Positions 1,639-29,115 are shown, counted from the stretch's first letter. The stretch is 32,000 nucleotides of DNA from Polynucleobacter necessarius (GCF_900095195.1 NZ_LT606950.1:240001-272000), one strand, 5' to 3'. Numbers and translations are program-made. The notes: generated by a model from the letters alone, not told the origin.

Positions 1639-2400
1639 ATGAACATGGAAGATAGTTTCAGTGGGAAAACAGTGCTTATTACTGGAGCCTCAGGTGGTAT
1701 TGGCTCCGCAATTGCATTATTTTTCGCATCCAAAGGAGCGAACTTAATATTATTGGGTCACGATAATTCTGCTCTGATGGAGTCGTTGTTATTTGAGGTA
1801 AAAAAATATGATGTTTCTGTTATTGATATCTTAGGCGATATTTCATCGCCAGTTTTTTGCGATGCCGTTAAATTCACCTCAATTCGGAATTTTAAAAAAG
1901 TTGATATTTTAGTAAACTGCGCTGGAATAATTACTAGAACTCCTTTTGAGCTCATGACCCTTGAAGAGTGGTCGTCTGTAATTAACGTAAACTTAAACGG
2001 CACTTTTAATATGTGTCAAAAATTTATGCCAGACATGGCAAAAAATAATTACGGAAGAGTTGTTAATATTACTTCTCAAATGGCCTTTTTGCCGCATCCT
2101 GGCGCTTCCCCTAGCTACGAAGCTACTAAAGCGGCAATAACCGCCTTCACTAGACATTTAGCAAGTATTTATGCTGGTAAGAATGTGTGTGTAAACTCCG
2201 TTGCGCCAGGTTCAATTAATACTCAACTGCCAAGATCTATGCCTCCCGATGTTAGAAAGGCCTTGGAGCAAAGGATTCCCATGTCAAGACTTGGGGAGCC
2301 TGAGGAGGTGGCTAGTGTTGTTGGATTTCTTTGTTCGGATTCAGCGTCCTACATTACCGGCACTACTATTCACGTAAATGGCGGGACCTTGATGACATAA
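1639..2400 (+). CDS. Short-chain dehydrogenase/reductase (FabG-like 3-oxoacyl reductase family)
   Basis: [18 protein letters not shown] (TGxxxGxG), the YEATKAA (YxxxK) catalytic motif, and the C-terminal [11 protein letters not shown] typical of classical SDRs. Confidence 0.85.
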
Positions 2401-2419
2401 TTTCTGGGGGTGGGGTAAC

Positions 2420-2686
2420 TTGATAAACGTGCGAGAAAAGCTAATTGAATTATTGAAAGAAGCTGGCGTGGTTAATTTTGGAAATAATGTTGATAACTTT
2501 AATTTTATTGACGATGCTGGTTTGGATTCATTTGAAATAATAAATATTATCTCAGATATAGAATCTATTTTAGGCGCTGAATTACCTATGCATGAGCTTG
2601 AAAAAACGGGCTCGCATACCATTTCTGGTTTTGTTAAAGTCGCCGAAGGGGTTATTAGGAGAATTGATGGGGGTAATCTACGATGA
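2420..2686 (+). CDS. Acyl carrier protein-like carrier protein
   Basis: 88 aa. DDAGLDSFEIINIISDIESILG matches the phosphopantetheine attachment motif (Ser codon at 2528-2530). A G-rich SD (ggggtgggg) lies just upstream of the TTG start. Confidence 0.75.
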   Translation: MINVREKLIELLKEAGVVNFGNNVDNFNFIDDAGLDSFEIINIISDIESILGAELPMHELEKTGSHTISGFVKVAEGVIRRIDGGNLR

Positions 2687-4184
2687 ATTATTGCGGGGAT
2701 CAAATAGAACTCCTAACAAAATTGCAGTTATCACTGCAGAAAATATTTCGATTACCTATTCAGAGTTGTGCCTTCTCGTAAGAAAGAGGGCTAATCGGCT
2801 ATTAAAGCTAATCGATTTTAGAAGTGGCGATAATTGCTGTGTTGCGATATTGTATCGAGATGAGTGCGAACAATTAATTACAGTTTTGGCGTTAAATGCC
2901 TGTAATCTCTTTATAGCCCCTATAAATCCAGAGCTAATAGATAGTCAAGTCAAATTGGCCGTTGAATCGGTAGAGGCCAATTACCTTTTGCATGATCTTC
3001 CATATGAACTAGATAATCTTGACATATTATCATTTCAATGCAGAGTCGAAGATGACAGAGCTGAGAATGAAGCAGAGGTGAGGGTTGAGTCCTGTGACTA
3101 CAGCAACTTTTTGGTTACCTTGTCTTCTGGCTCAACGGGTAATCCAAAGCCAATAGTCTTCTCCGAAAAGGCCAAGATTATGCGTTTTATGCATGCAAAA
3201 AATACTTATATGTTGAGCGAAAATGATGTTGTTTTATGTGCATCACCTTTTCACCACTCATTAGGTCAAAGACTTACTTTTTTACCATTATTGTTAGGTG
3301 GGACACTTGTATTCCTAAGAAAATTCTCAAAAGAAACTTGGTACAGCAAAGTCAAGGAGGCAAAAGTTTCATTTACAATAGCCGTCTCCTCCCATCTTAA
3401 TTCCTTGCAAGATGATTTTTTTGAATTTATATCAAAGGGCTCTGATCTAAGAGCGCTTGTTTCATCCTCTGCATTTATTGACGACGAAACCAAAGAGAGA
3501 TTTTTTGCAATATCTAACTTTGATTTTTATGAAATGTACGGAGCATCTGAAGTCGGCACTGCAACAAATTTAAATAAAAATGATCATGTAAGCAAGCGAG
3601 GTTCTGTGGGAAGAGCCTGTGAAAATGTAATTATTGAAATTGTAGATGAACATAAAAAAAGGATTGAAACGCCTTTATCAGTAGGGGAAATAAAAATTAA
3701 ATCCAACACGATTTGTGAAGGTTATTTTAATAGAGACGATCTGAATAGGGAAACGTTTGTAGATGGATACTTTTACACCGGTGATTTGGGTTACCTGGAT
3801 AGAGATGGGTATCTGTACTTTGTAGACAGAAAGAAAGACCTCATCATAACTGGAGGTAGCAATATTTACCCTTCTGATATCGAGGAGGTAATTAGACAGA
3901 TAGAGGGGATTATTGATTGTTGTGTAGTAGGATTTGAGGACAAATATTTGGTTGAGGTACCAGTAGCATTTGTTATTGCACGTGGATCAAAGGTTGAAAT
4001 AGAGCAAAAAATTAGAAAACATGTCAGAAAGAATTTATCCCCATTTCAGAGACCAATTGGATATGCTTTTTATGAATCATTTCCAGTTAATGCCACCGGA
4101 AAACTTGATAAGAAATTACTCAGGGAGCAGGCAAAGCAAAATTTTTCTTCTATAAGCAAAAAATATTTAGCACTCAAAAAATGA
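2667..4184 (+). CDS. ANL-superfamily adenylating enzyme (acyl-CoA/acyl-carrier-protein ligase)
   Basis: TLSSGSTGNPKPIV, YGASEVG and YTGDLGYLDRDGYLYFVDRKKDLIITGGSNIYP are the AMP-binding core motifs. I place the start at ATG 2667 (MGVIYDELL...), which overlaps the ACP 3' end by 20 nt, rather than at the ORF-track start 2592, which lies deep inside the ACP gene. Confidence 0.85.
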   Translation: MGVIYDELLRGSNRTPNKIAVITAENISITYSELCLLVRKRANRLLKLIDFRSGDNCCVAILYRDECEQLITVLALNACNLFIAPINPELIDSQVKLAVESVEANYLLHDLPYELDNLDILSFQCRVEDDRAENEAEVRVESCDYSNFLVTLSSGSTGNPKPIVFSEKAKIMRFMHAKNTYMLSENDVVLCASPFHHSLGQRLTFLPLLLGGTLVFLRKFSKETWYSKVKEAKVSFTIAVSSHLNSLQDDFFEFISKGSDLRALVSSSAFIDDETKERFFAISNFDFYEMYGASEVGTATNLNKNDHVSKRGSVGRACENVIIEIVDEHKKRIETPLSVGEIKIKSNTICEGYFNRDDLNRETFVDGYFYTGDLGYLDRDGYLYFVDRKKDLIITGGSNIYPSDIEEVIRQIEGIIDCCVVGFEDKYLVEVPVAFVIARGSKVEIEQKIRKHVRKNLSPFQRPIGYAFYESFPVNATGKLDKKLLREQAKQNFSSISKKYLALKK

Positions 4185-5779
4185 TCGTATTTAGAGTTAA
4201 TGGATCAAATAGTTCAGGTATTGGACACATTAAGAGGGCAATCAAGTTAGCAAATTCACTCAAAAAAAAATACAAGATTGTTTTTTTGGTGGATGCTATA
4301 CAAAATCTTCCAAGACATTTTGTACCTTCATCATTCAAAATTGTTGAGGTTTATCCTCAAAAGTCGCAATATATCTCCGAGGAAGGGGACGCTAACTTAT
4401 GTATAAATATATTAGAAAGCGAATCAAAAATTAGTGCAGTTGTGGTTGATGACTATAGATTTAGTAAAGTCTGGGAAAAAATTATAAGAAAAAATTTAAC
4501 TCCAAACTTATGTGCATTTGATGATAGAGGGGACGTTGAGCATTGCTGCTCAGTTCTTGTTGACTCAAAATATGATGGTAGGGGAAGCAGCACGAGGTAT
4601 GAAGGCAAAACAAATCCTGAGTGTATAAAACTGCTTGGACCAAATTATTTTTTCTCACCCCAAAGAGTAAAAGATGAATATGATGATAACCGAGACAAAA
4701 GGTCAGTATTAATTACTTTGGGTGGTGGAGGTAATTTAGAAATAATGCTCCCAGTTATTAATAAATTACTCGACGATATTGATCGTGAGGAATTAAAAAA
4801 AATATATCTAATAGAGGGGCCATTTTCAGAAAATGCAGAAAAAATAAAAAGAATCATCAAAGATAGTAGGCTGATAATAATCAAGAATGCACCAGATCTT
4901 ACTGAGTATTTAACGGATGTATCAGTGTATATAGGCAGTTCAGGCACTACGCTATTCGAGGCATTATCACTAGGCTGTTCTTGCCTCTCATTTTCAATAG
5001 CTCAAAATCAACTAAATGATAAAAAAAATCTTGAAGATTTGGGACATTATTTTCATATCAATAATTTTGAAAATTGTAATAAAAATGATTTTGCTTTGCT
5101 TTGCAAGAATTTCTACTTGAAAAGAGAGCGCATCAAGGAGTTGCAAAAGAGCGCGAATGTAAAATTAGATGAGTTTGGTGTTGAAAGGGTTTCTAATCAA
5201 CTGCAAACTCTTATAAGAGGCGACGATAAAGTAGTCCCTATGCAACATAAATATAAAGAGAAAGATAAAAAAGGAGCATTTAGTAAGAAAAATGATAAAT
5301 CTTTTAGAAAGATTAACGATAAAGATGTAAATGCATATTTATACGCAAGAAATTTAAAAAAAAATTCAGACAATATGACAATTAATTCATTGATACCTGA
5401 AGTGGAGCATTACAATTGGTGGTTAACAAATGAAAGAGAATCTTATGTGATGGAGCATAATGGCAAACCAATTTTATACATATGGCACCAAACAAAAATA
5501 GTGGATTCTGAGCTTTACTTATTTGGTGGCTGGTTTATTGCTAGTGAAAAAATATCTCCTTTAGATGTCATGTTGGCGTTAAAATACCAGCTTAATCTGA
5601 CAAATAAAACATACCCTAATGTAACATGGTTGGCGATAATAAAAAAGACAAACAAATTTGTTAAAAAATTAAACGAAAAATATGGATTTAAAATGACCTC
5701 AAATGAAAAATTTGAAATTGCTATAGAAAAAATATTTAATAAGGTTGATAAAAACAGTTTTGACTTTTATTATAAATAA
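4181..5779 (+). CDS. pseG: UDP-2,4-diacetamido-2,4,6-trideoxy-beta-L-altropyranose hydrolase (PseG) fused to a C-terminal GNAT/PseH-like domain
   Basis: The N-terminus IVFRVNGSNSSGIGHIKRAIKLANSL and IGSSGTTLFEALSLGCSCLSF match the PseG GT-B-like fold. A Lys-rich linker follows, then about 150 aa (EVEHYNWWLTNE...KKLNEKYGFKM) resembling PseH-type acetyltransferases. ATGA overlap with the upstream gene. Confidence 0.7.
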   Translation: MIVFRVNGSNSSGIGHIKRAIKLANSLKKKYKIVFLVDAIQNLPRHFVPSSFKIVEVYPQKSQYISEEGDANLCINILESESKISAVVVDDYRFSKVWEKIIRKNLTPNLCAFDDRGDVEHCCSVLVDSKYDGRGSSTRYEGKTNPECIKLLGPNYFFSPQRVKDEYDDNRDKRSVLITLGGGGNLEIMLPVINKLLDDIDREELKKIYLIEGPFSENAEKIKRIIKDSRLIIIKNAPDLTEYLTDVSVYIGSSGTTLFEALSLGCSCLSFSIAQNQLNDKKNLEDLGHYFHINNFENCNKNDFALLCKNFYLKRERIKELQKSANVKLDEFGVERVSNQLQTLIRGDDKVVPMQHKYKEKDKKGAFSKKNDKSFRKINDKDVNAYLYARNLKKNSDNMTINSLIPEVEHYNWWLTNERESYVMEHNGKPILYIWHQTKIVDSELYLFGGWFIASEKISPLDVMLALKYQLNLTNKTYPNVTWLAIIKKTNKFVKKLNEKYGFKMTSNEKFEIAIEKIFNKVDKNSFDFYYK

Positions 5780-11295: not shown

Positions 11296-12185
11296 TTAAT
11301 AAATTTACCAAAAGAATTTCAATTGGAACTGCTCAATTTGGAAGCGCTTATGGAATCGCAAATAGAGTTGGGGAGGTTAGCGAAGACCACATCGCAGAGA
11401 TGTTGACACAAGCAAAATTAAATGGAATTAAAAAATTAGATACAGCACCCTCTTATGGAAATGCTGAGTCTAAATTAGGTAAGTACGGGGTTAAAGATTT
11501 TGAAATTACTACTAAGGTCTCAAAAATTCCACCCGAAGTCGATGATATTCGTGGCCATATAACCAGAGAAGTTGATAGCTCCATTATAAGGCTTGGAGTA
11601 AATTGTATAGACACAGTGTTATTTCATAATGAAAAAGATTTGGAAGGTCATCGGGGTTACTTAGCATATCAAGCGCTGTATGATCTACAGCTTCAAGGAC
11701 TTGTAAAAAAAATTGGAGTTTCGACTTACTTTAGTGACAGTTTAGAGGCAGCGCTAAGAGAATATAAATTTCAAACTATACAGGTGCCATACAGCATAGT
11801 TGATAGAAGGCTGGAATTTTTTAATTCAAGGTTAGATCTTTATGGGATTGGCATTCAAGCTAGGTCTATTTTTTTACAAGGACTTCTTCTTTTGCAAGCA
11901 AAAGAAGCTATGAAGAGATGCAAAGCATGGGGTAGTAAAGCAGCCGCTTGGAGCTTATTTTTGAATGAAAATAAATGTGCCGCTTATGATGCGGCCCTTT
12001 ATTTCGGGTTATCAAATAGCAATATAGAGACATTTGTGGTGGGTCTGGACAGTTTAGAGCAATTGCAAATGCTTTTGTACTCATTAAAAAGTTTTAATGG
12101 TAACAAATGGCTTTCAATTGAACAGCTAAAGTCTGAAGATGAGAATTTATTAAATCCTTTTGCGTGGAAGAGACTCGATGAATAA
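11292..12185 (+). CDS. Aldo/keto reductase family oxidoreductase
   Basis: ISIGTAQFGSAYGIAN and LDTAPSYGNAE (the Asp/Tyr of the AKR tetrad). TTGA overlap with the pseC stop. Confidence 0.75.
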   Translation: MINKFTKRISIGTAQFGSAYGIANRVGEVSEDHIAEMLTQAKLNGIKKLDTAPSYGNAESKLGKYGVKDFEITTKVSKIPPEVDDIRGHITREVDSSIIRLGVNCIDTVLFHNEKDLEGHRGYLAYQALYDLQLQGLVKKIGVSTYFSDSLEAALREYKFQTIQVPYSIVDRRLEFFNSRLDLYGIGIQARSIFLQGLLLLQAKEAMKRCKAWGSKAAAWSLFLNENKCAAYDAALYFGLSNSNIETFVVGLDSLEQLQMLLYSLKSFNGNKWLSIEQLKSEDENLLNPFAWKRLDE

Positions 12186-13491
12186 AAGTAAAAAAGGTTT
12201 GGAACTATGGGGCCGGGCAAAAAAAGTGATCCCCGGCGGAAATATGTTGCTGTCCAAGAGATCGGAAATGTTTCTTCCAGAGAGGTGGCCCAGCTACTTT
12301 GATAAAAGTCGTGGTTGCACGGTCTGGGATTTAGATGGGAACTCTTATGTTGATATGTCGATAATGGGGATTGGAACCAACAGTCTAGGTTATGGGCATA
12401 AAGATGTTGATAAAGCTGTCATGGAGGTGGTTCAAAAAGGCAATATGTCAACCTTTAACTGCCTTGAGGAGGTTCTCCTTGCTGAAAAACTATTAGAGCT
12501 TCACCCATGGGCGGACATGGTTCGACTTGCGAGGACAGGTGGCGAGGCAAATGCAATAGCAATACGCATTGCGCGTGCGGCATCAGGGCGTGATGGGGTG
12601 GCAATATGTGGCTATCATGGTTGGCATGATTGGTATTTATCTGCAAACATACGTAATAATAATCAACTTTCCGATCATCTTTTACCCGGACTATCACCGA
12701 ATGGTGTTCCAAACAATCTTGGAGGAACGGTATTCCCATTTAGGTATAACAATACTGATGAATTTATGAAGGTCATTACCGAAAATGATATCGGGGTAGT
12801 CAAAATGGAGGTATGTCGCAATGAGCGTCCAGCACCAGGTTTTTTAGAATTTATACGCGATGAAACCAAGAAGCGTGGAATTGTGCTGATTTTTGACGAG
12901 TGCACCTCTGGATTCCGAGAAACATATGGGGGGTTGCATTTGAAATATGGCGTTAACCCTGATATGGCAGTATTTGGAAAGGCGCTAGGTAATGGGTACG
13001 CTATTACAGCGGTAATCGGATCAAAAAATATTATGGAGGCAGCGCAATCAACCTTCATAAGCAGTACTTTTTGGAGCGAGAGAATTGGACCCGCAGCAGG
13101 TATTGCAACTTTAGATGTAATGAAGAAACTTAAATCATGGGAAATAAATTCAGAGACTGGAGAGAGAATAAAAGAGCTCTGGAAATTAATTTCTATAGAA
13201 AATAAAGTGCCGATTAAAGTTTCAGGATTATCTTCGATACCATCATTTAGTTTTGATTCACCCAATCACTTGGCTTTGAAAACATTTTTGACTCAAGAGA
13301 TGTTAAAAAAGGGTTACTTAGCTACACCTCTGATCTTTGTATGCACTAAACATGAAGAACTGATTGTCAAAAGATATGGCCAAGTTCTCAATGATGTATT
13401 TCGTGAAATAAGTCACCTACATGAATTTGAACAAATAGTTAGCCGTTTGGATGGACCGGTATGTCATGATGGTTTTAAAAGACTAAACTAA
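12178..13491 (+). CDS. Class III PLP aminotransferase (glutamate-1-semialdehyde 2,1-aminomutase-like)
   Basis: VIPGGNMLLSKRSEMF...WDLDGNSYVDM, FDECTSGFR and FGKALGNGY (PLP Lys). I place the start at ATG 12178 (MNKSKKG...), which overlaps the upstream stop. Confidence 0.8.
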   Translation: MNKSKKGLELWGRAKKVIPGGNMLLSKRSEMFLPERWPSYFDKSRGCTVWDLDGNSYVDMSIMGIGTNSLGYGHKDVDKAVMEVVQKGNMSTFNCLEEVLLAEKLLELHPWADMVRLARTGGEANAIAIRIARAASGRDGVAICGYHGWHDWYLSANIRNNNQLSDHLLPGLSPNGVPNNLGGTVFPFRYNNTDEFMKVITENDIGVVKMEVCRNERPAPGFLEFIRDETKKRGIVLIFDECTSGFRETYGGLHLKYGVNPDMAVFGKALGNGYAITAVIGSKNIMEAAQSTFISSTFWSERIGPAAGIATLDVMKKLKSWEINSETGERIKELWKLISIENKVPIKVSGLSSIPSFSFDSPNHLALKTFLTQEMLKKGYLATPLIFVCTKHEELIVKRYGQVLNDVFREISHLHEFEQIVSRLDGPVCHDGFKRLN

Positions 13492-14624: not shown

Positions 14625-14660
14625 AAAACTATTTGAAATTTTGATTTCAAATAGTTTTTT
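14625..14660 (+). terminator. Rho-independent-type hairpin closing the pseF...pseI gene block
   Basis: Perfect 11-bp stem ctatttgaaat (14629-14639) / atttcaaatag (14644-14654), 4-nt loop, then T6 (14655-14660), preceded by A4. The stem is AT-rich, so stability is modest. Confidence 0.5.
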
Positions 14661-14761: not shown

Positions 14762-15787
14762 ATGACAAAAAGTGATAAAGATATTAAGAAGTTGACTATT
14801 GTATTGCCGACATACAATGCAAGAAAATCCATTACAAGGGCCGTGGATTCAGTTCTAAATTTGCTGAATGATTCAGAACTTAGTACAGAGCTAATTGTAA
14901 TTGATGATTATTCAGATGATGATACATTCGAAATAATTAATAAAAATTATTCAGCATTTTCTAACATATATATATATAAAAATGCAAAGAATGAAGGCCC
15001 AGGAAAAACAAGAAATAGCGCATTAGAAAAAATTTCAAGCGGGTATGTAGGGTTTATTGATTCGGATGATCAGTTAAACCCTACCACCTATAAAAAAGCA
15101 TTCCTAGATGGTTTGATCAAAAATGCTGATTTAATAACATTTGATGTTGCAACTATTATGCCAACAAAATCAATACTCAGATATGACTATGATAGAGTTG
15201 GGGGTGATAAATTTAATTTGGTTAGAAATTGCATCAAAGGGGATCTGGATGGATCTGTAATATTTAGTATTTACAAAAAATCAATGCTTGATAACTTTAG
15301 AATAAAGTTTTCTTCAAACTACTATGAGGACATAGTATTTAATTATTCGGCTATTATGTCCTCCGATAGTATTCATGTGGCAAAAGAAATTTGCTACAAA
15401 AAATACTGCACTCCAAAATCAATACTAAACTCAATATCTGAAAAGCATATTGACGGAATGATAGACGCTTCTATCTTGGTTAGAGATTTTGCAATTCGTA
15501 ATGGTTACTCTACATATAAAGAATTTAAATCTGATTTCGACTATTGTCTTTCTGGTTATATTGCCTCATTAGTTATAGATATCTTGAAGCATGAAAAAAG
15601 TATCGATCGATCTATCAGTCTTCTAAAATATCTTCACCAAAAGCTAGAGCGTTGTTTTAGAATGGGAAATATAGCCACGAGAGTCGATACCAAAAAAGAC
15701 AGATTAAGTAATTTTTTCATAAATAATTTTGATACTAGTAGGTTAAATATAACCATTGGTCGGTTAAAGGAGTTGATTGAATTATGA
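14762..15787 (+). CDS. Family 2 glycosyltransferase
   Basis: LTIVLPTYNARKSITRAVDSVLN, LIVIDDYSDDDT and GFIDSDD (DxD). Start placed at ATG 14762 (MTKSDKD...), whereas the ORF track begins at 14684. Confidence 0.8.
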   Translation: MTKSDKDIKKLTIVLPTYNARKSITRAVDSVLNLLNDSELSTELIVIDDYSDDDTFEIINKNYSAFSNIYIYKNAKNEGPGKTRNSALEKISSGYVGFIDSDDQLNPTTYKKAFLDGLIKNADLITFDVATIMPTKSILRYDYDRVGGDKFNLVRNCIKGDLDGSVIFSIYKKSMLDNFRIKFSSNYYEDIVFNYSAIMSSDSIHVAKEICYKKYCTPKSILNSISEKHIDGMIDASILVRDFAIRNGYSTYKEFKSDFDYCLSGYIASLVIDILKHEKSIDRSISLLKYLHQKLERCFRMGNIATRVDTKKDRLSNFFINNFDTSRLNITIGRLKELIEL

Positions 15788-17100
15788 AAACAAAAAGTTG
15801 CATATATTTACAAAAAGCAGTTTACTTTGCTCCCTCTGAAATAAGGGCTTGCTGCCAAAGATTTTTCTACAAGGATCAATTAAAAGGTGACGCAGTATTG
15901 CTCAAAGCCAAAAACAAAAATGTTTCTTATAGCGAAATACTTGACGCAAAGAGAGAGCTAATAAACTTAATCAATAGTAATGAGGAAAATCAGTGCACTG
16001 GCTGCCCCCACATTAAAAAATCAGATTGGCCTCCGGTCGAGTTTGAGTCGGTGAATGTTTGTTCTATTGAGGATCATTCATTGTGTAATATGCGCTGCTC
16101 GTATTGTTCTGATACATTTTATGGTGGTGAAGCTCCACAATATAACTTAAAAAACATTTTGGATGAGATGCGCCCAGATGAAAACCTTCATATTGCATGG
16201 GGAGGTGGGGAGCCAACATTGCGTAAAGATTTTGAAGACCTCTTCTTGGATGTCACTTATAAATTAAATCCCAAAACCCAAAGGGTATTTACTAACGCAT
16301 TAATCTACTCGCCATCTATGCAGAGGGTAATTGATGCAGGTTTGACATCAATTACAACTAGTCTTGATGCTGGTACTGAAGAAACTTTTATTAAAGTTAG
16401 GGGGGCTAAAAAAATCAATAGGGTATTCGCAAATCTTTCTAGGTATAGTCAATTAAGACCAGACTTATGTACGATAAAGTACATTTTTACTGATGATAAT
16501 TGCTCAATTCATGAGATTGAAAGTTTTGTGGGCAAGGTAGAAGAAAATAGACTTCAAGCGTGCAATTTTCTAATAAGCACTGACTTTAAATTGCAAAGTC
16601 TACATGAAAACAAAGTCAAAGGAATAAGTTGGCTTTATTTCCTTTTGGTATCAAAAGGAATAGTTTCGATTACATTTGATGATCATATTTTCGCTAGACT
16701 CAGATCAATAATGCCAAGATTACGAGCGATATTGCAGGATTTCATTTCCTGCAAATCAGAATCAGGGCTTGGCAGCTTAAAAGAATTGATTGATAACTAT
16801 GCTGGCGTTGAAAATGAATTGCCAATTTATGTATGGGGAACCGGAGAATTTGCCAAATTTTTATTATCTTCATCTGAAATGCTGAGCAATAAAAGGATAA
16901 AAATATTAGGCTTTGTGGATGGAAATAGTAATTTATGGGGCGAAGAATTTGATGGATTTAAAATTTTAGACCCCAAAATTTTACTTAACTCAAATGCAAA
17001 GATTCTAATTGCATCAGCAAATCATTATGGTGAGATTGTTAATAGTGTCTTAAAGATGGGAATTGGTCGAGAAAGAATAATCCCCAATTTTATACTGTAA
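15784..17100 (+). CDS. Radical SAM enzyme with N-terminal Cys-rich region and C-terminal Rossmann-like domain
   Basis: CNMRCSYC (CxxxCxxC, codons 16084-16107) and GGGEPTL (SAM-binding GGE motif). Extra Cys residues at CC (ACCQRF) and CTGC lie upstream of the core. The C-terminal IYVWGTGEFAKFL...ILGFVDGNSNLWGEEFDGFKILDP resembles the nucleotide-binding N-domain of NeuD/PglD-type proteins. ATGA overlap with the GT2 gene. Confidence 0.8.
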   Translation: MKTKSCIYLQKAVYFAPSEIRACCQRFFYKDQLKGDAVLLKAKNKNVSYSEILDAKRELINLINSNEENQCTGCPHIKKSDWPPVEFESVNVCSIEDHSLCNMRCSYCSDTFYGGEAPQYNLKNILDEMRPDENLHIAWGGGEPTLRKDFEDLFLDVTYKLNPKTQRVFTNALIYSPSMQRVIDAGLTSITTSLDAGTEETFIKVRGAKKINRVFANLSRYSQLRPDLCTIKYIFTDDNCSIHEIESFVGKVEENRLQACNFLISTDFKLQSLHENKVKGISWLYFLLVSKGIVSITFDDHIFARLRSIMPRLRAILQDFISCKSESGLGSLKELIDNYAGVENELPIYVWGTGEFAKFLLSSSEMLSNKRIKILGFVDGNSNLWGEEFDGFKILDPKILLNSNAKILIASANHYGEIVNSVLKMGIGRERIIPNFIL

Positions 17101-17267
17101 CTTGATTATTGAGAAATTAATACCGCTTAAGCTGTTGTCTAATTTTTGAAGTTCTGATAAGTATGACCACGTAAGTTTTATTCGTGACAAAAGAGCACCT
17201 TTCCATGTTGATTCACCGCGTTGCCTGGGTTTTTCGGTGGGATTTACAATTAACCAATTGGGATTGC

Positions 17268-17777
17268 TTAAGTAAGAGATAGCAAAGAAATAAAGTGCAG
17301 AGGTTTTTTGGTGCAGACCCAAGAGCCATTTATTAATGCATCAATAATGTGACCTTCATTAATTTCGCCCCCAGTGAGTTCATTGCTGCATCCAATTGTA
17401 TTGGAGTTGAAGTAATCTTTAATGCAGGTGTTAACCCATTGCCTTCCAAAATAAGTGTATGCAATTTGGCCCTTGTCAATGAAAAAAGAGTCTGCATTTT
17501 TGAAATATGGTGATGATGGCGTTTTTAAATGTACAAACACATTTTGAAGGTCTATGTCTTTAGGCTGAATTTGAATTAGATTATGAATATCATGTCCTAA
17601 GTAGGATCTTCCGTTAAGAATGAAAACATCAATTTCGACTGAGAAGCCTTCTTTAAGGCATTTTTTTATGCTTAGTATAGAATTTTCGGCCCAATGCATG
17701 TCATACATGGCTCTATGAATAATGATTTTAGATTTTGATATTTGTTCCGGCATATTTTTTCGATTGTGGGTATCCAA
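17268..17777 (-). CDS. Glycerophosphodiester phosphodiesterase (GDPD)-like protein, possibly truncated by a frameshift
   Basis: IIIHRAMYDMHWAENSILSIKKCLKEGFSVEIDV...LGHD carries the GDPD HR / EN / ExD / HD signature. It is the only minus-strand gene in the island. At 169 aa it is short for the family (see finding). Confidence 0.5.
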   Translation of the reverse strand: MDTHNRKNMPEQISKSKIIIHRAMYDMHWAENSILSIKKCLKEGFSVEIDVFILNGRSYLGHDIHNLIQIQPKDIDLQNVFVHLKTPSSPYFKNADSFFIDKGQIAYTYFGRQWVNTCIKDYFNSNTIGCSNELTGGEINEGHIIDALINGSWVCTKKPLHFISLLSLT

Positions 17778-17806
17778 AACTCTATTTTATTATCAAGGAT
17801 TAATTG

Positions 17807-18592
17807 ATGAATGAAAAAGCATCGGTATATACAAAAAAGATACTCATAACGGGCGCTTCGGGGCAGATGGCAAGCATAGCCCGTGATTTATACTGCAGTC
17901 ATTCTGTGGAATTATGGTCAACCAAGGATCTTGTTCTCAGAAAAAATGAAAGTTTACGAAAATCAGCCGACTTAGCCGATTCAACATGGTGGAAGACCTC
18001 TCAATTTAAGGTAAATTACGATATTATTTTTCATTTTGCTGAACCAGTTAAAAAAAAACTAACCCCAGATATTGTCGAAAAAATAATTGAGAGCCATACA
18101 GCTTTTTTAATCAATGCAACGAAATACGGCGCAAAAGTGGTTTATCCACTTACCGCTTATAGGTATGATCAGTCTCTGTCATTTAAAAATAGACAGTATA
18201 GAAATATTAAAGAGCGTGTAGCAATGACATTGCTGAAAAACGAGAAAATACTTCTTCCAATATTGCATCCAGTTGTAGATTTTGGTAATGGACTAAATTC
18301 AATCAGAAATCTCGTTAATAAAGTGCCAATAATTAATCCATTCTCAGAATTTAATGCTGAATTACCAGTTCTGTGTGAACATGATTTGAAGAGTTACATG
18401 CTAAACATTGAACAACAAAAAAGTGGAGCGACTAATGTGTATACTGAAATATTAAAAATAAAAAAAATTTTTAACAACCCCAATAAAAAAGATATAAGTT
18501 TTATTTCTGCACTATTAAAAACATTAATAAATACATTGCCAGATAGCGGTATAAAAAATATTTTAATTAATGGAAGAAAGATATATGATTAG
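17807..18592 (+). CDS. NAD(P)-binding Rossmann-fold protein (divergent epimerase/dehydratase/reductase-like)
   Basis: KKILITGASGQMASIARDL (GxxGxxA) and a QYRNIK (YxxxK-like) motif. Weak, family-level call. ATG 17807 preferred over TTG 17804. Confidence 0.45.
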   Translation: MNEKASVYTKKILITGASGQMASIARDLYCSHSVELWSTKDLVLRKNESLRKSADLADSTWWKTSQFKVNYDIIFHFAEPVKKKLTPDIVEKIIESHTAFLINATKYGAKVVYPLTAYRYDQSLSFKNRQYRNIKERVAMTLLKNEKILLPILHPVVDFGNGLNSIRNLVNKVPIINPFSEFNAELPVLCEHDLKSYMLNIEQQKSGATNVYTEILKIKKIFNNPNKKDISFISALLKTLINTLPDSGIKNILINGRKIYD

Positions 18593-19229
18593 GTTATTTG
18601 ATATATCTTTAGCTATATTTTTTTCCCCACTTTATTTATTATTATTAATAATAGGGTCAGTATTAAAACTGATAATTGATGGCAGGCCAATTTTTTACAT
18701 ATCCAAAAGATGCGTCAAAAATTTGAAAGAAGTAAAAGTCTACAAGTTTAGGACAATGATCAATGAAAGGTTGCTCATTGAGAATGAGGTTGCGAAGTAT
18801 ACAAAAAATGGGTTTGAGACTATACCATTACGATCAAATATTTATACCCCCCTGGGAAGAATTTATGAAAAATTTCAATTAGTGGAGCTACCCCAATTTT
18901 TAAACATTTTGATCGGCGAAATTTCATTTGTTGGATACAGGCCGCTTCCAGAGAAAAATATCAAAAAATTAACAAATGATCTAGGTGGCGATTTAGTTAC
19001 TCAAAGACACAAATACAATGCTGGTCTAACTGGCTATACTCAATTAATTGGAAAGATAAATTTATCTCCGACAAAGCGTTTGCAACTTGAAATACAGCTT
19101 GGTCAAGATCTATATGAAAACGGATTAATTATGGCCTCGAAAACATATTTTTCATTAATCCTCGATACAATAATACTGATAGTTTTTGATAAAACGATTT
19201 TTATTAACAGGGAAAAATTAATTGAATAG
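18585..19229 (+). CDS. Small monotopic phosphoglycosyl transferase (bacterial sugar transferase, PglC/WbaP C-domain family)
   Basis: MIRLFDISLAIFFSPLYLLLLIIGSVLKLIIDGRPIFY (re-entrant helix), VYKFRTMI, and LVELPQFLNILIGEISFVGYRPLPE. ATG 18585 overlaps the upstream stop. Confidence 0.8.
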   Translation: MIRLFDISLAIFFSPLYLLLLIIGSVLKLIIDGRPIFYISKRCVKNLKEVKVYKFRTMINERLLIENEVAKYTKNGFETIPLRSNIYTPLGRIYEKFQLVELPQFLNILIGEISFVGYRPLPEKNIKKLTNDLGGDLVTQRHKYNAGLTGYTQLIGKINLSPTKRLQLEIQLGQDLYENGLIMASKTYFSLILDTIILIVFDKTIFINREKLIE

Positions 19230-20268
19230 TAGTTTTAAAAATATTTTTTTGGTATCAAGCGCGCTCCAGTCAATAACTATTTTCTTATTGCTAAAAAGAG
19301 ACCCGCAATTAAAAAACAGCTCAATTATTTTTTTTGAGAATGAAACGGCTCTAATTCCCAGGTCATTTAAAAATGTAATTATGATCGAATCCACGAGGGG
19401 AAATCGAAAAGCAATAAAAAATAACTTTAAAAAAATAGAAAATTATGTGGATGGGAAACCTGTTCTATGGGTTTCTGATTTATTTTGGCCGATGAATAAT
19501 TTTACCTACACTTCGTTATTGAAATCTAATAAATTATCATCAATTAATTTTTTTGATGAGGGAATGGTCCTTTATTGGCGAAAGAATATTGGTTTAATCC
19601 GTTTTCTTAGAGAGGCATTAAAGTCGCTTACGCTAAAGATAGCGTTGGGTTGTTATTCATTTCTGCCTACAAAACCATTTTTTGGGATAAAAAAATTAGG
19701 AAAAATTTACGCTTACCATAAAGATTTATTGAAACACGAGGGTGTGCAAGAAATTAATATTGAGTCAAATGATTTGGAGGAATTTCGAAATGCTCTTGAT
19801 ATAAATTATTCGCATTTATCCAAAACAAAAATAGATGGTAAGTGCACACTTTTTTTAGCTGGCCCTTATTACCGTTTAAGTTCAGCATCTGAATTCGCGG
19901 TTTTATTAAGAAAATTGGTTTCTTACCTTAACTATTGCGGTTTCCATAATCTAATTGTTAAGTTGCATCCAACTGAGTCAAAGCAGGACTATTTTAATTA
20001 CTATCAATGCCATGGTTTTAAATTAATGGATTGTGTAAATAGTTTTCCAATAGAGGCCTACGCTGATTTGATGGGCGATATTGATTGTGTTGTGGGTTTT
20101 AACTCCTCCGCACTCTTAAACTTAAAAAAGTTTGGCTATGAAGGAAGATTACTTTCTTTCGGGCTTGACTACGTGTCAAATCTAGCTAAGTTTGACGTTG
20201 ATTTAACCGCGAAGCAAACAAGAATTTTCGGCGCCAAGGGTGTCGAGTTTAAAGACTTTTATGATTAA
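19222..20268 (+). CDS. Sialyltransferase-like glycosyltransferase (candidate pseudaminyltransferase)
   Basis: FDEG (D/E-D/E-G motif, codons 19555-19563) and KLHPTES (HP motif, 19966-19971), plus NIFLVSSALQ and GFNSSALLNL, parallel the motif order of GT52/GT38 bacterial sialyltransferases. No other family signature was recognised. Confidence 0.5.
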   Translation: MNSSFKNIFLVSSALQSITIFLLLKRDPQLKNSSIIFFENETALIPRSFKNVIMIESTRGNRKAIKNNFKKIENYVDGKPVLWVSDLFWPMNNFTYTSLLKSNKLSSINFFDEGMVLYWRKNIGLIRFLREALKSLTLKIALGCYSFLPTKPFFGIKKLGKIYAYHKDLLKHEGVQEINIESNDLEEFRNALDINYSHLSKTKIDGKCTLFLAGPYYRLSSASEFAVLLRKLVSYLNYCGFHNLIVKLHPTESKQDYFNYYQCHGFKLMDCVNSFPIEAYADLMGDIDCVVGFNSSALLNLKKFGYEGRLLSFGLDYVSNLAKFDVDLTAKQTRIFGAKGVEFKDFYD

Positions 20269-20280: not shown

Positions 20281-20811
20281 ATGGATATGATCAGCAGCCT
20301 TGCAAATCAATATTGCAAACTTTCGGCTTTCACATTAGAGGATGTAACAAAGTCTTACGTGAATTGGCTTAATGACAGGGAAATAAACCAATTCTTAGAG
20401 TCAAGGTTTGAATTTCACACTATTGAATCTGTCTTGGAGCAAGTTAGTTTGTGGATTAATAATACAAGCTATATGTACTACACGATTCGTTGTCCAGTTA
20501 CAAACGAGCATGTTGGAAACATTAAATTAGGTCCAATCAACAAATATCATCTTACTGCAGATATTGGTTATGTTCTAGGGAACAAGGAGTTTGCAGGAAG
20601 AGGCTTGGCTACTAACGCTTTAGTTTTATTATCCAATTACGCTTTTCAAAGTGGAGTAAAAAAAATTACTGCAGGCGCATACGAATCGAATATTGCTTCA
20701 ATCAGGGTGATGGAAAAGGCTGGCTATTCACTTGAATGTATTAGAAAGTCACACGTTGTATTTAATGGGGGGCGTGTTAATAGCCTTTTATATTCAAAAT
20801 ATGCAGTTTGA
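20281..20811 (+). CDS. GNAT-family N-acetyltransferase (RimJ/RimL-like)
   Basis: VNWLNDREINQFLESRF, GRGLATNALVLLSNYAF (acetyl-CoA binding region) and MEKAGYSLE. Confidence 0.75.
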   Translation: MDMISSLANQYCKLSAFTLEDVTKSYVNWLNDREINQFLESRFEFHTIESVLEQVSLWINNTSYMYYTIRCPVTNEHVGNIKLGPINKYHLTADIGYVLGNKEFAGRGLATNALVLLSNYAFQSGVKKITAGAYESNIASIRVMEKAGYSLECIRKSHVVFNGGRVNSLLYSKYAV

Positions 20812-20820
20812 CTGTAATTG

Positions 20821-21231
20821 ATGGGGTGCCAATTGATAAAAAAAATTGAGAAAAATAATTTACTCTTAGGAATTGTGATGCAATCGAGTTTTCGGTTAAA
20901 AGAAGGTATCGAATTCATTACAGATGAAAACTCAGAATTTCAACTTGGTTATATGCATAGATCGAGAAATTATGAGGTTAGGCCGCATTTTCATATTCAG
21001 AAATTAAGGCAAATTTCTCAAACTTCAGAAGTTTTGATCGTAAAGACTGGCTCTATATGCGTCAGTTTTTTTGATTGCGGCGGAGATTTTGTATCATCAG
21101 AGGAGTTATCTGATGGCGATATATGTATGTTTGTTGCGGGTGGTCACGGTGTTAAATTTCTCGAAGATAGTGACCTTATAGAGATAAAGCAGGGGCCCCA
21201 CCTCCCCGGTCATGATAAAAAATTTATTTAA
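20821..21231 (+). CDS. Cupin-fold protein (WbuC / sugar ketoisomerase-like)
   Basis: About 137 aa. His-containing RPHFHIQK, and GDICMFVAGGHGVKFLEDSDLIEIKQGP, typical of small cupins in polysaccharide loci. Tentative. Confidence 0.45.
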   Translation: MGCQLIKKIEKNNLLLGIVMQSSFRLKEGIEFITDENSEFQLGYMHRSRNYEVRPHFHIQKLRQISQTSEVLIVKTGSICVSFFDCGGDFVSSEELSDGDICMFVAGGHGVKFLEDSDLIEIKQGPHLPGHDKKFI

Positions 21232-21234
21232 CAA

Positions 21235-26142: not shown

Positions 26143-26200
26143 TGTGCCTGCCTAAAATTTATAAATACTTCTGTTTTATGAATGAATCCAACATTGTAAG

Positions 26201-27607: not shown

Positions 27608-29115
<1,508 letters not shown>

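What the first reader, a model, noticed from the sequence alone, without database searches (positions are those of the whole stretch)
15784..17100. Three-part radical SAM enzyme in a two-gene operon with a GT2 glycosyltransferase
The canonical CxxxCxxC (16084-16107) and GGGEPTL motifs sit in the middle of the protein. An N-terminal ~95-aa region carries four or five additional Cys residues (C..CC, CTGC), which could bind an auxiliary cluster in an unusual position. A C-terminal ~100-aa Rossmann-like module (IYVWGTGEFAKFL...ILGFVDGNSNLWGEEFDGFKILDP) resembles the nucleotide-sugar-binding N-domain of NeuD/PglD acyltransferases. I do not recognise this architecture as any characterised sugar-modifying radical SAM enzyme. 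Its translational coupling to a GT2 gene suggests radical chemistry on a nucleotide sugar or lipid-linked glycan, such as C-methylation, epimerisation, or deoxygenation/deamination.
Basis: partly seen in the sequence, partly recalled or inferred. Interest (0 to 1): 0.65.

Follow-up and report, generated by a model that had tools for sequence, protein, structure and literature searches.

The report
Glycosyltransferase-coupled radical SAM sugar-tailoring enzyme
This gene encodes an uncharacterised but widespread iron-sulfur "radical" enzyme that always works with, and in most bacteria is fused to, a sugar-transferring enzyme, so it probably makes an unknown modification of a cell-surface sugar.

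Summary
ORF 15784-17100 encodes a 438-aa radical SAM (rSAM) protein with three parts:
- an N-terminal five-Cys domain;
- a CxxxCxxC/GGGEP core;
- a C-terminal Rossmann-like module.

Its start overlaps the stop of a canonical GT2 gene by 4 bases.

The pair is a split form of a widespread enzyme. In 31 of 55 genomic relatives, and 85 of 143 further cluster representatives, GT2 and rSAM form one ~780-aa protein. The five N-terminal Cys are essentially invariant. Their order and spacing follow the Twitch auxiliary-cluster pattern, but at the N-terminus. The C-terminal module is homologous to the N-domains of FkbM methyltransferases and NeuD/PglD-type acyltransferases.

No curated family cutoff is reached, no close solved structure exists, and no paper on it was found.

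Relatives sit in O-antigen and flagellin-glycan loci that make N-acylated amino-dideoxy sugars, usually next to a GFO/IDH/MocA or SDR oxidoreductase.

Best reading: the enzyme performs radical tailoring of a nucleotide-linked sugar, probably through a keto-sugar that the oxidoreductase then processes, coupled to transfer by GT2. The exact reaction is unknown. It is an uncharacterised variant of sugar-modifying rSAM enzymes and is moderately to highly interesting.

The parts
14762..15787 (+). GT2 glycosyltransferase, partner subunit. The ORF call starts at GTG 14684; the likely start is ATG 14762.
   Evidence: Pfam Glycos_transf_2, 78 bits. The PxxN, DD, NxGPGxxRN, DSDD (DXD), ED and Y..R..S motifs are conserved in 45 rSAM-linked partners. 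The nearest PDB sequences are K4CP, TarP and TarS.
15767..15787 (+). Translational-coupling junction: AAGGAG (15767-15772), rSAM ATG (15784-15786), GT2 stop TGA (15785-15787).
   Evidence: Sequence read.
15784..17100 (+). Radical SAM protein, 438 aa (whole gene including stop).
15784..16053 (+). N-terminal Cys-rich domain (aa 1-90): C6, C23, C24, C71, C74. Proposed N-terminally placed Twitch-like auxiliary Fe-S site.
   Evidence: The Cys are invariant. Predicted beta-hairpin at 12-21, helix at 49-64, then CxxC. No PDB fold or sequence match.
16054..16683 (+). Radical SAM core (aa 91-300), with CxxxCxxC at 16084-16107 and GGGEP at 16201-16215.
   Evidence: Pfam PF04055. Foldseek hits to SkfB, BlsE, SuiB, anSME and DesII cores.
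16684..16815 (+). Helical linker (aa 301-344), the least conserved and least confident region.
   Evidence: pLDDT 63-84. Variable in the alignment.
16816..17097 (+). C-terminal Rossmann-like module (aa 345-438): WGTGE...VD, with G352, G354 and D379.
   Evidence: Weak PF22674 C2185-like_N hit. Foldseek hits to 2g6t and Rex. 3nkl at E 4e-4. hhalign to FkbM and NeuD-like N-domains.
17804..18592 (+). Candidate partner oxidoreductase (divergent SDR-like; TGASGQ and YRNIK motifs). Context only, not shown to belong.
   Evidence: Weak Pfam Epimerase hit, E 0.011. The role is suggested only by the GT2+rSAM+SDR/GFO adjacency in relatives.
1639..5779 (+). FabG-like SDR (1639-2400), ACP (2420-2686), AMP-ligase (2592-4184) and PseG-fusion (4181-5779). 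This module directly follows GT2-rSAM in the nearest genomic relatives.
   Evidence: Gene order in L005 and L048.

Best explanation
**What it is.** The gene encodes the radical-SAM half of a two-part enzyme, fused in most bacteria, with the layout GT2 glycosyltransferase / radical SAM. The enzyme tailors and then transfers a sugar during surface-glycan synthesis. In this window that glycan comes from a horizontally acquired pseudaminic-acid-containing O-antigen-type locus of a Polynucleobacter.

**Shown.**
- The rSAM has a canonical SAM-cleaving [4Fe-4S] site.
- It has an invariant five-Cys N-terminal domain.
- It has a C-terminal Rossmann-like module of the kind that sits at the N-terminus of nucleotide-sugar-modifying enzymes.
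- Its partner GT2 keeps all the catalytic GT-A motifs.
- GT2 and rSAM are adjacent or fused almost everywhere.
- A GFO/IDH/MocA or SDR oxidoreductase is the next most constant neighbour, even in relatives of only 25-30% identity.

**Inferred.**
1. The C-terminal module holds the nucleotide of an NDP-sugar. The sugar is most likely an N-acylated 4- or 3-amino-dideoxyhexose: the UDP-linked pseudaminic-acid intermediate here, and dTDP-amino-dideoxyhexoses in other loci.
2. The 5'-deoxyadenosyl radical abstracts a ring hydrogen.
3. The N-terminal Twitch-like cluster moves one electron.
4. The immediate product is a keto-sugar. It would form either by BtrN-like alcohol oxidation or by DesII/AprD4-like elimination.
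5. The partner NAD(P)H oxidoreductase or a DegT aminotransferase then converts the keto-sugar. The net result is epimerisation, deoxygenation or amination at an unactivated carbon.
6. The coupled GT2 transfers the product to the growing glycan.

**Probabilities.**
- About 0.8 for 'glycan-tailoring rSAM obligately coupled to GT2'.
- About 0.4 for 'keto-sugar-forming step completed by the neighbouring oxidoreductase'.
- At most 0.2 for any single named reaction.
For: **Architecture and conservation:**

**GT2 linkage**
- A GT2 homolog lies within 300 bp in 45 of 55 loci.
- The two form a single ORF in 31 of 55 loci. One example is L026:8957-11302, with Pfam GT2 plus Radical_SAM.
- 85 of 143 additional 50%-identity representatives are at least 700 aa, with the rSAM part at the C-terminus.
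- The GT2 catalytic motifs are conserved.

**C-terminal module:** homology to NDP-sugar enzyme N-domains.

**Genomic context**
- GFO/IDH/MocA in 39 loci.
- DegT in 37.
- AMP-ligase in 28.
- ATP-grasp in 17.
- NeuB in 16.
- ACP in 16.
- 4,6-dehydratase in 16.
- Several loci also carry Maf and flagellin genes.
- An oxidoreductase lies within two genes in 33 of 51 loci.
- Relatives from Brachyspira, Elusimicrobium and Geobacteraceae at 25-30% identity still show GT2 + rSAM + SDR.
- The DNA homology to L001 is strongest over exactly the GT2-rSAM pair, which in L001 is flanked by IS genes.

**Precedents**
- Twitch element order, and the proposed role of auxiliary clusters in oxidising the radical intermediate in BtrN and anSME (PMC6231123).
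- The rSAM dehydratase AprD4 with its NADPH reductase partner AprD3 (PMC5461906).
Against: - There is no biochemical evidence of any kind. The substrate, the site of H abstraction and the product are all inferred.
- The N-terminal domain has no significant match to any SPASM or Twitch model or structure.
- The window itself has no GFO gene. Its FabG-like SDR sits next to an ACP and an AMP-ligase, so that oxidoreductase may serve the N-acyl chain rather than the sugar.
- The frequent ACP/ligase or ATP-grasp neighbours would fit chemistry on the acyl substituent equally well.
- GFO-family enzymes can oxidise sugars on their own, which makes an rSAM dehydrogenase partly redundant.
Confidence: 0.6

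Rival explanations
1. The rSAM acts on the N-acyl substituent rather than the sugar ring. The substituent could be a hydroxyacyl or aminoacyl group carried on the ACP, or one already amide-linked to the amino sugar. Possible reactions are deoxygenation, cyclisation or C-C bond formation in the side chain. GT2 then transfers the finished sugar.
For: - A carboxylate-activating enzyme co-occurs in most loci: AMP-ligase plus ACP, or ATP-grasp. Typical gene orders are AMPlig>GFO>ACP>GT2-rSAM and GFO>ATP-grasp>GT2-rSAM.
- In the nearest relatives the order is GT2>rSAM>FabG-like SDR>ACP>AMP-ligase>PseG-fusion.
- The window carries the same SDR/ACP/ligase/PseG module.
Against: - Distant relatives keep GT2+rSAM+SDR without any ACP, ligase or ATP-grasp nearby.
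- The C-terminal module is of the type found on NDP-sugar enzymes.
- The fusion partner is the GT, not the ACP or the ligase.
Confidence: 0.2
2. The rSAM is a direct radical epimerase, like HygY, NeoN or AviX12. One Cys of the invariant CC pair returns a hydrogen atom to the opposite face, so no free keto intermediate forms. The neighbouring oxidoreductases would then be unrelated to its reaction.
For: There are five invariant N-terminal Cys although only four are needed to ligate a cluster. The core has no other invariant Cys. That Twitch-type rSAM sugar epimerases exist is from my own knowledge and was not checked here.
Against: It does not explain why an SDR or GFO gene is the most constant neighbour across 25-50% identity. 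Which Cys ligate the cluster is unknown.
Confidence: 0.12
3. It is a peptide or protein maturase of the SPASM/Twitch group (sactipeptide- or anSME-like). It would act on a small protein such as the ACP-like gene product or flagellin, not on a sugar.
For: The best structural and profile hits are the RiPP maturases SkfB, CteB and SuiB, and anSME. Small 85-93-aa ORFs are frequent neighbours.
Against: - Those hits cover only the generic core (TM about 0.36-0.40).
- There is no RRE domain.
- The small ORFs carry a phosphopantetheine-attachment signature.
- The loci are full of NDP-sugar genes.
- The fusion is to a GT with intact catalytic motifs.
Confidence: 0.04
4. The N-terminal Cys domain is a structural zinc-binding or docking domain. 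For example, it could form the interface to GT2 rather than hold an auxiliary Fe-S cluster.
For: No SPASM or Twitch model or structure matches it. In fusions it lies exactly between GT2 and the core.
Against: - The Cys spacing and secondary-structure order match the Twitch definition.
- NCBIfam already recognises rSAM proteins with an N-terminal Twitch domain (NF033640). Distant relatives give weak hits to it, including one to its N-terminal region.
- Invariant Arg21 and Arg26 flank the CC pair, as would be expected near an active site.
Confidence: 0.15

Closest known systems
BtrN (Twitch-domain radical SAM 2-deoxy-scyllo-inosamine dehydrogenase, butirosin pathway)
   Same: - It is an rSAM acting on an amino-carbohydrate.
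- It has one auxiliary cluster in a Twitch domain whose ligands follow the order Cys / beta-hairpin / Cys / helix / CxxC (PMC6231123).
- The product ketone is passed to a DegT-type aminotransferase (my own knowledge).
   Different: - BtrN's Twitch domain is C-terminal; here the Cys domain is N-terminal.
- Sequence similarity is confined to the core (E 5e-3).
- BtrN has no Rossmann module and no GT partner.
- BtrN's substrate is a free cyclitol, not an NDP-sugar or glycan.
AprD4/AprD3 (radical SAM diol dehydratase plus NADPH reductase) and DesII (TDP-4-amino-4,6-dideoxyglucose deaminase)
   Same: - The logic is the same: an rSAM makes a keto-sugar and a dedicated reductase or aminotransferase finishes a deoxygenation (PMC5461906).
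- DesII uses the product of a DegT-family 4-aminotransferase acting after a 4,6-dehydratase. Those are the same upstream genes that accompany this family.
- DesII is among the structural hits (E 6e-6).
   Different: - There is no specific sequence relationship.
- Those enzymes have neither the N-terminal Cys domain nor the C-terminal Rossmann module.
- They are not coupled to a GT.
NCBIfam NF033640 'N_Twi_rSAM' (radical SAM proteins with an N-terminal Twitch domain)
   Same: The concept is the same: a Twitch-type Cys domain placed before the rSAM core. Relatives give weak hits (L026 fusion 40 bits; L062 N-terminal region E 0.015).
   Different: All scores are far below the cutoff of 170 bits. 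The window N-terminus gives no hit at all. It is therefore a different family. I do not know of any functional characterisation of NF033640.
NeuD/PglD-type acyltransferases, FkbM-type methyltransferases, WbpM/PglF-type dehydratases and CAC2185 (PDB 2g6t)
   Same: They share the small Rossmann-like module G-x-G ... (V/L)D ... G ... P ... I(A/G)S. In PglD that module binds the nucleotide of the UDP-sugar (my own knowledge).
   Different: In those proteins the module is N-terminal and is followed by a left-handed beta-helix, a methyltransferase or a dehydratase domain. Here it is C-terminal to an rSAM core.
Pathways that use separate rSAM and GT2 enzymes (HpnH/I/J in hopanoids, MftC/MftF in mycofactocin, ArsS with the arsenosugar GT2)
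   Same: An rSAM and a GT2 work in one pathway. The window GT2 gives weak hits to the MftF and arsenosugar GT2 models.
   Different: Those are separate proteins from other rSAM families, and their substrates are not surface glycans. As far as I could find, none is a GT2-rSAM fusion.

Membership tests
Radical SAM superfamily (PF04055) | CxxxCxxC motif that binds the SAM-cleaving [4Fe-4S] cluster. | tested here: met
   C101/C105/C108, nt 16084-16107. Invariant in 222 of 222 relatives.
Radical SAM superfamily (PF04055) | Profile score above Pfam's gathering cutoff, and the GGE SAM-binding motif. | tested here: met
   46.3 bits against a cutoff of 29.5. GGGEP at aa 140-144; G141, G142 and E143 are invariant in 222 of 222 relatives, and G140 and P144 are invariant or nearly so in the 109-sequence alignment.
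Radical SAM superfamily (PF04055) | Partial (beta/alpha)6 barrel fold. | tested here: met
   Model pLDDT 90.7. Foldseek probability 1.00 to many rSAM cores.
SPASM/Twitch radical SAM subgroup | Auxiliary-cluster domain C-terminal to the core. | tested here: not met
   The region C-terminal to the core is a Cys-free Rossmann-like module. The Cys domain is N-terminal.
SPASM/Twitch radical SAM subgroup | Twitch element order: Cys, beta-hairpin, Cys, alpha-helix, then two Cys (PMC6231123). | tested here: met
   C6, strands 12-15 and 19-21, C23/C24, helix 49-64, C71xxC74. This is pattern-level only.
SPASM/Twitch radical SAM subgroup | Detectable sequence or fold similarity of the Cys domain to known SPASM or Twitch domains. 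| tested here: not met
   No Pfam SPASM/Fer4 hit at E<=10. PDB profile search best E 0.23, to unrelated proteins. Foldseek best E 3.2.
SPASM/Twitch radical SAM subgroup | The domain actually binds a second Fe-S cluster. | not testable with these tools
   This needs Fe/S analysis and spectroscopy.
NCBIfam NF033640 N_Twi_rSAM | Whole-protein score of at least 170 bits. | tested here: not met
   It is not among the window protein's 25 best hits (7 weaker hits were not shown), so it scores at most about 18 bits against a cutoff of 170. Relatives score 23-40 bits. The window N-terminus gives no hit.
MoaA (GTP 3',8-cyclase) | Equivalog score of at least 284 bits, and a C-terminal CX2CX13C cluster. 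| tested here: not met
   51.7 bits, core only. There are no C-terminal Cys.
Characterised sugar rSAM enzymes (BlsE TIGR04466, DesII, BtrN, viperin) | Family-level sequence match. | tested here: not met
   Viperin 33 bits against a cutoff of 180. BlsE, DesII and BtrN give only core-level PDB hits, E 1e-3 to 5e-3 by sequence.
NeuD/PglD sugar N-acyltransferases | N-terminal Rossmann-like nucleotide-sugar-binding domain. | tested here: met
   A homologous module is present, but at the C-terminus: hhalign 81%, E 1.2e-5 over 55 columns.
NeuD/PglD sugar N-acyltransferases | Left-handed beta-helix (hexapeptide) catalytic domain. | tested here: not met
   No Hexapep hit. It is not a member; only the accessory module is shared.
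GT2 glycosyltransferases (partner protein 14762-15787) | GT-A profile match with a DXD motif and an acceptor-side ED motif. | tested here: met
   PF00535 at 78 bits. DSDD and ED are conserved in at least 95% of 45 partners.
Proposed GT2-coupled N-Cys rSAM family (this family) | GT2 adjacent or fused, five N-terminal Cys, and the C-terminal WGxGE...VD module. | tested here: met
   The window protein is the split form.

The most novel reading that the evidence does not exclude
GT2-rSAM proteins are a previously undescribed class of bifunctional 'tailor-and-transfer' glycan enzymes. They would install a chemically difficult modification at an unactivated sugar carbon at the moment of glycosyl transfer: radical deoxygenation, epimerisation or C-C/C-X bond formation. 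They would use an N-terminally transposed Twitch cluster. Their product would be a so-far undescribed sugar on the surfaces or flagella of very abundant bacteria, including SAR11, Prochlorococcus, Polynucleobacter, Pseudoalteromonas and Helicobacter/Sulfurimonas relatives.
Probability: 0.35. Interest if true: 0.78.

Novelty: new variant of a known kind. Interest (0 to 1): 0.6.

Why it matters
- **Rarity of the enzyme type.** Radical SAM enzymes that act on sugars are few, and almost all come from antibiotic pathways. This is a large family (622 clusters at 50% identity with E<=1e-30) that sits in the surface-glycan and flagellin-glycosylation loci of ecologically dominant and host-associated bacteria.
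- **Physical coupling.** The family is physically joined to a glycosyltransferase.
- **What solving it would give.** Working out the reaction would probably reveal a new sugar modification. It would show a new arrangement of an auxiliary Fe-S domain. It would also let hundreds of O-antigen and flagellin-glycan loci be annotated properly.
- **Practical value.** The split form in this window gives a naturally separable rSAM subunit for biochemistry.

Tried and rejected
- **Curated family assignment.** NCBIfam gave only sub-threshold generic hits to MoaA, StsB, viperin, MftC and PqqE. Pfam gave only the superfamily domain plus a weak C2185-like_N hit. Rejected as MoaA, viperin, BlsE or a SPASM maturase.
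- **PDB by sequence and profile** **and by fold**. Only core and Rossmann-level matches appeared. The N-terminal domain alone matches nothing.
- **Exact-sequence lookup of the window protein's contig.** This failed.
- **Literature.** Ten searches found no characterised member. They combined radical SAM with pseudaminic, legionaminic or nonulosonic acid, flagellin glycosylation, O-antigen cluster, fusion, Twitch + GT, and capsule + epimerase. Two more searches were for the BtrN/Twitch and AprD4/AprD3 precedents. The only related mention is of phase-variable 'MoaA/NifB/PqqE/SkfB family' rSAM genes in Campylobacter fetus, and homology to this family was not verified.
- **Cys-Cys distances in the model.** Coordinates are not exposed to scripts.
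- **Rfam and tRNA scans of the window.** Nothing was found.
- **C-methyltransferase idea.** Set aside because the protein has no cobalamin-binding or HemN-like domain. Separate B12-rSAM genes do occur next to it in 4 loci.
- **GT2 using CMP-pseudaminic acid directly.** Considered unlikely because GT-A/DXD GT2 enzymes use NDP-sugars (my own knowledge). A polyST-like gene (19222-20268) is the likelier Pse transferase.
Full report
**1. The observation**

ORF 15784-17100 (+) encodes a 438-aa protein.
- The CxxxCxxC motif is C101/C105/C108, exactly nt 16084-16107.
- WGGGEPTL is aa 139-146.
- The N-terminal ~95 aa hold five Cys: C6, C23, C24 and C71-T-G-C74.
- Pfam finds Radical_SAM at aa 100-230 (46.3 bits, cutoff 29.5).
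- The upstream ORF is a GT2 (78 bits). Its TGA overlaps the rSAM ATG in ATGA, and AAGGAG lies 11 nt upstream of that ATG.

All the descriptive claims are therefore correct.

**2. It is a real, large and uncharacterised family**

- A word-indexed search found 312 relatives, mostly ~435 aa and from metagenomes.
- An exhaustive profile search of 1.84 billion cluster representatives found 622 with E<=1e-30 and 2,473 with E<=1e-10.
- In 222 near-full-length members, C6, C23, C24, C71 and C74 are conserved in 215-222. The exceptions are almost all truncated N-termini.
- The three SAM-cluster Cys, G141, G142, E143 and G352 are conserved in all 222. R21, R26, E96, R206, K232 and D299 are conserved in at least 213.
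- No NCBIfam model comes near its cutoff. The best is MoaA at 52 bits against 284; viperin, MftC, PqqE and StsB are all generic core hits.
- The PDB has nothing closer than rSAM cores by sequence or profile: CteB 5e-9, SkfB 3e-8, MoaA 1.5e-6, anSME, BlsE and BtrN.
- The same holds by fold: SkfB, BlsE, SuiB, anSME and DesII, with TM about 0.35-0.40.
- Ten full-text searches found no paper on a member (two further searches were for the precedents cited below).

**3. Anatomy**

The AlphaFold model built on 109 sequences is confident (pLDDT 90.7, pTM 0.89).

*(a) Residues 1-90, the N-terminal Cys domain*
- It is a beta-rich domain.
- C6 precedes a beta-hairpin (strands 12-15 and 19-21) and C23/C24 follow it. 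A long helix (49-64) comes next, then C71xxC74.
- This is the order that defines a Twitch domain: Cys before the hairpin, Cys after it, helix alpha2', then two Cys (PMC6231123).
- The spacing is C-x16-C-x47-C-x2-C. From memory this is close to that of BtrN's four ligands.
- The domain is N-terminal, whereas SPASM and Twitch domains are by definition C-terminal.
- I could not confirm the homology. Pfam SPASM/Fer4 models do not hit. A profile of the domain finds nothing in the PDB. A separate high-confidence model of the domain (pLDDT 92) has no Foldseek match (best E 3.2).
- NCBIfam does contain a subfamily named for an N-terminal Twitch domain (NF033640). Relatives of this protein hit it only weakly, at 23-40 bits against a cutoff of 170. 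One distant relative hits the N-terminal part of that model at E 0.015. The window N-terminus does not hit at all.
- An auxiliary Fe-S cluster is therefore the best reading of five invariant Cys, but it is inferred.

*(b) Residues 91-300*
- This is the rSAM partial barrel.

*(c) Residues 301-344*
- This is a variable helical linker with lower confidence.

*(d) Residues 345-438, the C-terminal module*
- It is a beta-alpha-beta module with G352-x-G354 and D379.
- It gives only a weak hit to Pfam C2185-like_N (12-16 bits, cutoff 27).
- It superposes on PDB 2g6t (CAC2185) and on Rex.
- It matches the WbpM-type N-domain 3nkl at E 4e-4.
- In profile-profile comparison it is homologous to the N-domains of the FkbM methyltransferases encoded in the same loci (97%, E 7e-11). 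It is also homologous to those of NeuD/PglD-like hexapeptide acyltransferases (81%, E 1.2e-5).
In PglD that module holds the nucleotide of the UDP-sugar (my own knowledge).

**4. The GT2 is an obligate partner**

- Among 55 genomic loci with full-length relatives, a homolog of the window GT2 lies within 300 bp in 45.
- In 31 of the 55, GT2 and rSAM are one ORF of 747-836 aa. The window GT2 (aa ~36-366) and the rSAM (aa 2-438) align colinearly with that ORF and without a gap. Pfam confirms both domains in L026.
- 85 of 143 additional representatives are at least 700 aa, with the rSAM part at the C-terminus. This explains the odd JGI name 'poly(ribitol-phosphate) beta-N-acetylglucosaminyltransferase'. 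The GT2's nearest solved relatives include TarP and TarS.
- The 45 partner GT2 sequences conserve PxxN, DD, NxGPGxxRN, DSDD, ED and Y..R..S. The GT2 is therefore a catalytically competent GT-A enzyme and not a degenerate binding domain.
- The window carries the split form.
- Homology to the 80%-identical metagenomic relative L001 is strongest over exactly the pair: 77% over 14799-17102, against 64-66% elsewhere. In L001 the pair is flanked by IS3-type genes. The pair therefore behaves as a mobile two-gene module inside a bigger cluster.

**5. Context**

*The window*
- Positions 10-23557 are one co-directional surface-glycan locus with low GC (0.27-0.42, against 0.43-0.49 in the flank beyond about 25 kb).
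- Its genes, in order:

| Position | Gene |
|---|---|
| 934 | PseF-like |
| 1639 | FabG-like SDR |
| 2420 | ACP |
| 2592 | AMP-ligase |
| 4181 | PseG-fusion |
| 5779 | ABC exporter |
| 7430 | Methyltransferase |
| 8073 | Wzy-like |
| 9150 | PseB |
| 10144 | PseC |
| 11292 | Aldo-keto reductase |
| 12160 | Class-III aminotransferase |
| 13531 | PseI (437 bits) |
| 14684 (ORF call; likely start ATG 14762) | GT2 |
| 15784 | rSAM |
| 17804 | Divergent SDR-like ORF |
| 18570 | Initiating phosphoglycosyltransferase |
| 19222 | PolyST-like transferase |
| 20281 | GNAT |
| 21235 | DegT |
| 22385 | GT1 |

- The flank is Polynucleobacter. A LivJ-like protein is 93-96% identical to named Polynucleobacter proteins, and the contig is 1.55 Mb.

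*Related loci*
- The most constant neighbours are GFO/IDH/MocA (39 of 55), DegT (37), AMP-ligase (28), ATP-grasp (17), NeuB (16), a small ACP (16), a 4,6-dehydratase (16) and a PseG fusion (13). Antibiotic_NAT/DUF4910, FkbM or TylF methyltransferases and B12-rSAM genes also recur.
- Two settings recur. One is pseudaminic-acid gene sets, several of them in flagellin islands with Maf (L008, L011, L018, L044). The other is RmlA/RmlB/DegT sets for dTDP-amino-dideoxyhexoses (L038, L049, L056, L064).
- What the two settings share is an NDP-linked 4- or 3-amino-dideoxyhexose, a carboxylate-activating enzyme for an unusual N-acyl group, and an oxidoreductase.
- An oxidoreductase (GFO or FabG-like SDR) is within two genes in 33 of 51 loci.
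- Relatives of only 25-30% identity in Brachyspira, Elusimicrobium and Geobacteraceae keep the N-terminal C...CC...CxxC pattern. They still sit in GT2 + rSAM + SDR trios, without any ACP, ligase or ATP-grasp.
- The conserved core is therefore GT2 + rSAM + NAD(P) oxidoreductase.

**6. Mechanism**

*Shown*
- The parts list and its conservation.
- The fusion with GT2.
- The glycan context.

*Inferred*
- The rSAM binds an NDP-sugar through the C-terminal module and abstracts a ring hydrogen.
- It uses the N-terminal cluster for the accompanying one-electron step.
- It releases a keto-sugar that the partner oxidoreductase or a DegT aminotransferase converts, and the GT2 then transfers the product.

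*Precedents for that logic*
- BtrN, where a Twitch cluster is proposed to oxidise the substrate radical (PMC6231123).
- AprD4/AprD3, an rSAM dehydratase with an NADPH reductase (PMC5461906).
- DesII, which acts on the DegT product of a 4,6-dehydratase pathway (my own knowledge); it is also a structural hit.

*Why GT2 probably does not use CMP-pseudaminic acid*
- GT-A/DXD enzymes use NDP-sugars.
- In the Pse setting the likely substrate is therefore the UDP-linked 4-amino-4,6-dideoxy-AltNAc intermediate or a housekeeping UDP-sugar. This is inference.

*Probabilities*
- About 0.8 for the general role.
- About 0.4 for the keto-sugar/oxidoreductase scheme.
- At most 0.2 for any specific reaction.

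*Main rival*
- The chemistry could be on the N-acyl chain (0.2). This is favoured by the ligase/ACP and ATP-grasp neighbours and by the window's own SDR-ACP-ligase module. It is disfavoured by the distant trios that lack those genes.
- Direct epimerisation through the spare Cys, a peptide-maturase role, and a purely structural Zn domain are further rivals.

**7. Comparison and novelty**

- The protein is a member of the radical SAM superfamily only. It fails every tested narrower family: MoaA, viperin, BlsE, NF033640 and the SPASM/Twitch subgroup as defined by a C-terminal domain.
- It works like the small group of carbohydrate rSAM enzymes but differs in three ways. It has an N-terminal Twitch-like domain. 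It has a C-terminal NDP-sugar-enzyme accessory module. It is obligately coupled or fused to a glycosyltransferase.
- I rate it a new variant of a known kind. It is uncharacterised, widespread and experimentally tractable, with an interest score of about 0.6.

Noticed in passing
window 23557-29115: The flank belongs to a Polynucleobacter. The LivJ-like protein at 26285-27469 is 93-96% identical to named Polynucleobacter proteins, and the contig is 1.55 Mb. The flank looks decayed. There is no ORF of 120 aa or more in 23.6-26.3 kb, only frameshifted LivH-like permease fragments at about 24.8-26.1 kb. A 178-aa C-terminal fragment of a GMC oxidoreductase sits at 28579-29115, and a short EamA ORF at 27914-28555. 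The small genome and pseudogenes fit a host-restricted lineage of the Euplotes-symbiont type, yet the ~24-gene glycan locus is intact.
   Followed up: partly
window 1-25000 versus 25000-32000: GC content is 0.27-0.42 across the glycan locus and 0.43-0.49 in the chromosomal flank. The nearest relatives of the rSAM are marine gammaproteobacterial or metagenomic. The locus therefore looks horizontally acquired.
   Followed up: partly
window 14625-14658: A perfect 15-nt AT-rich inverted repeat (AAAACTATTTGAAAT / ATTTCAAATAGTTTT, 4-nt loop) lies in the 112-bp gap between PseI and GT2. DNA homology with L001 starts about 140 nt downstream of it, at 14799. It could be a weak terminator or a module junction.
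   Followed up: no
L001:76-1217 and 3917-4983: In the 80%-identical metagenomic relative, the GT2-rSAM pair is bracketed by IS3-type transposase genes (HTH_Tnp_1/rve). It is inverted relative to the GT1/DegT/GNAT/polyST/Bac_transf genes that follow it in the window.
   Followed up: partly
window 2420-2686: This is an 88-aa acyl-carrier-protein ORF (PP-binding 21.4 bits, cutoff 20.8; LDS motif). It is overlapped by the mechanical AMP-ligase ORF call. Together with the FabG-like SDR (1639), the AMP-ligase (2592) and a PseG protein carrying a 250-aa unassigned C-terminal domain (4181), it looks like a module for an N-(hydroxyacyl) pseudaminic acid.
   Followed up: partly
window 11292-13491: An aldo-keto reductase and a glutamate-semialdehyde-aminomutase-like class-III aminotransferase are inserted between PseC and PseI. 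The same two genes recur in other Pse loci that carry this rSAM: L005, L008, L011 and L045. There the aminotransferase is often fused to a CTP_transf_3 cytidylyltransferase. They have no assigned role in the canonical Pse pathway.
   Followed up: no
window 17101-17803 (minus-strand ORF 17268-17777): The 700-bp gap after the rSAM holds only a 169-aa minus-strand ORF with no Pfam or NCBIfam hit. By eye its N-terminus (IIIHRA...ENS...E.D) recalls glycerophosphodiester phosphodiesterases. It may be a remnant gene.
   Followed up: no
L022:12514-14760 (also L016, L037, L041): A B12-binding radical SAM protein is encoded next to the GT2-rSAM fusion in 4 loci. Read by eye, the L022 protein ends in the same Rossmann-like motif (VAIWG...VIVDKSEARVG...P...CIVVS) as the C-terminus of the rSAM studied here. 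The module would then be attached to two different rSAM classes.
   Followed up: no
L038:5552-6613: In Vibrio sp. WZ-1 a full-length DAHP synthase paralog (aroFGH, 488 bits) sits inside the glycan locus, between DegT and the GFO/ATP-grasp/GT2-rSAM genes. That is an unusual gene for such a locus.
   Followed up: no
window 20281-22368: GNAT (20281), a 137-aa ORF without hits (20818) and DegT (21235) are arranged like an FdtC/FdtA/FdtB-type set for a 3-acetamido-3,6-dideoxyhexose. The 137-aa ORF gave no significant family match. A 141-aa ORF recurs in a similar position in L036 and L056, and that one also gave no NCBIfam match.
   Followed up: no
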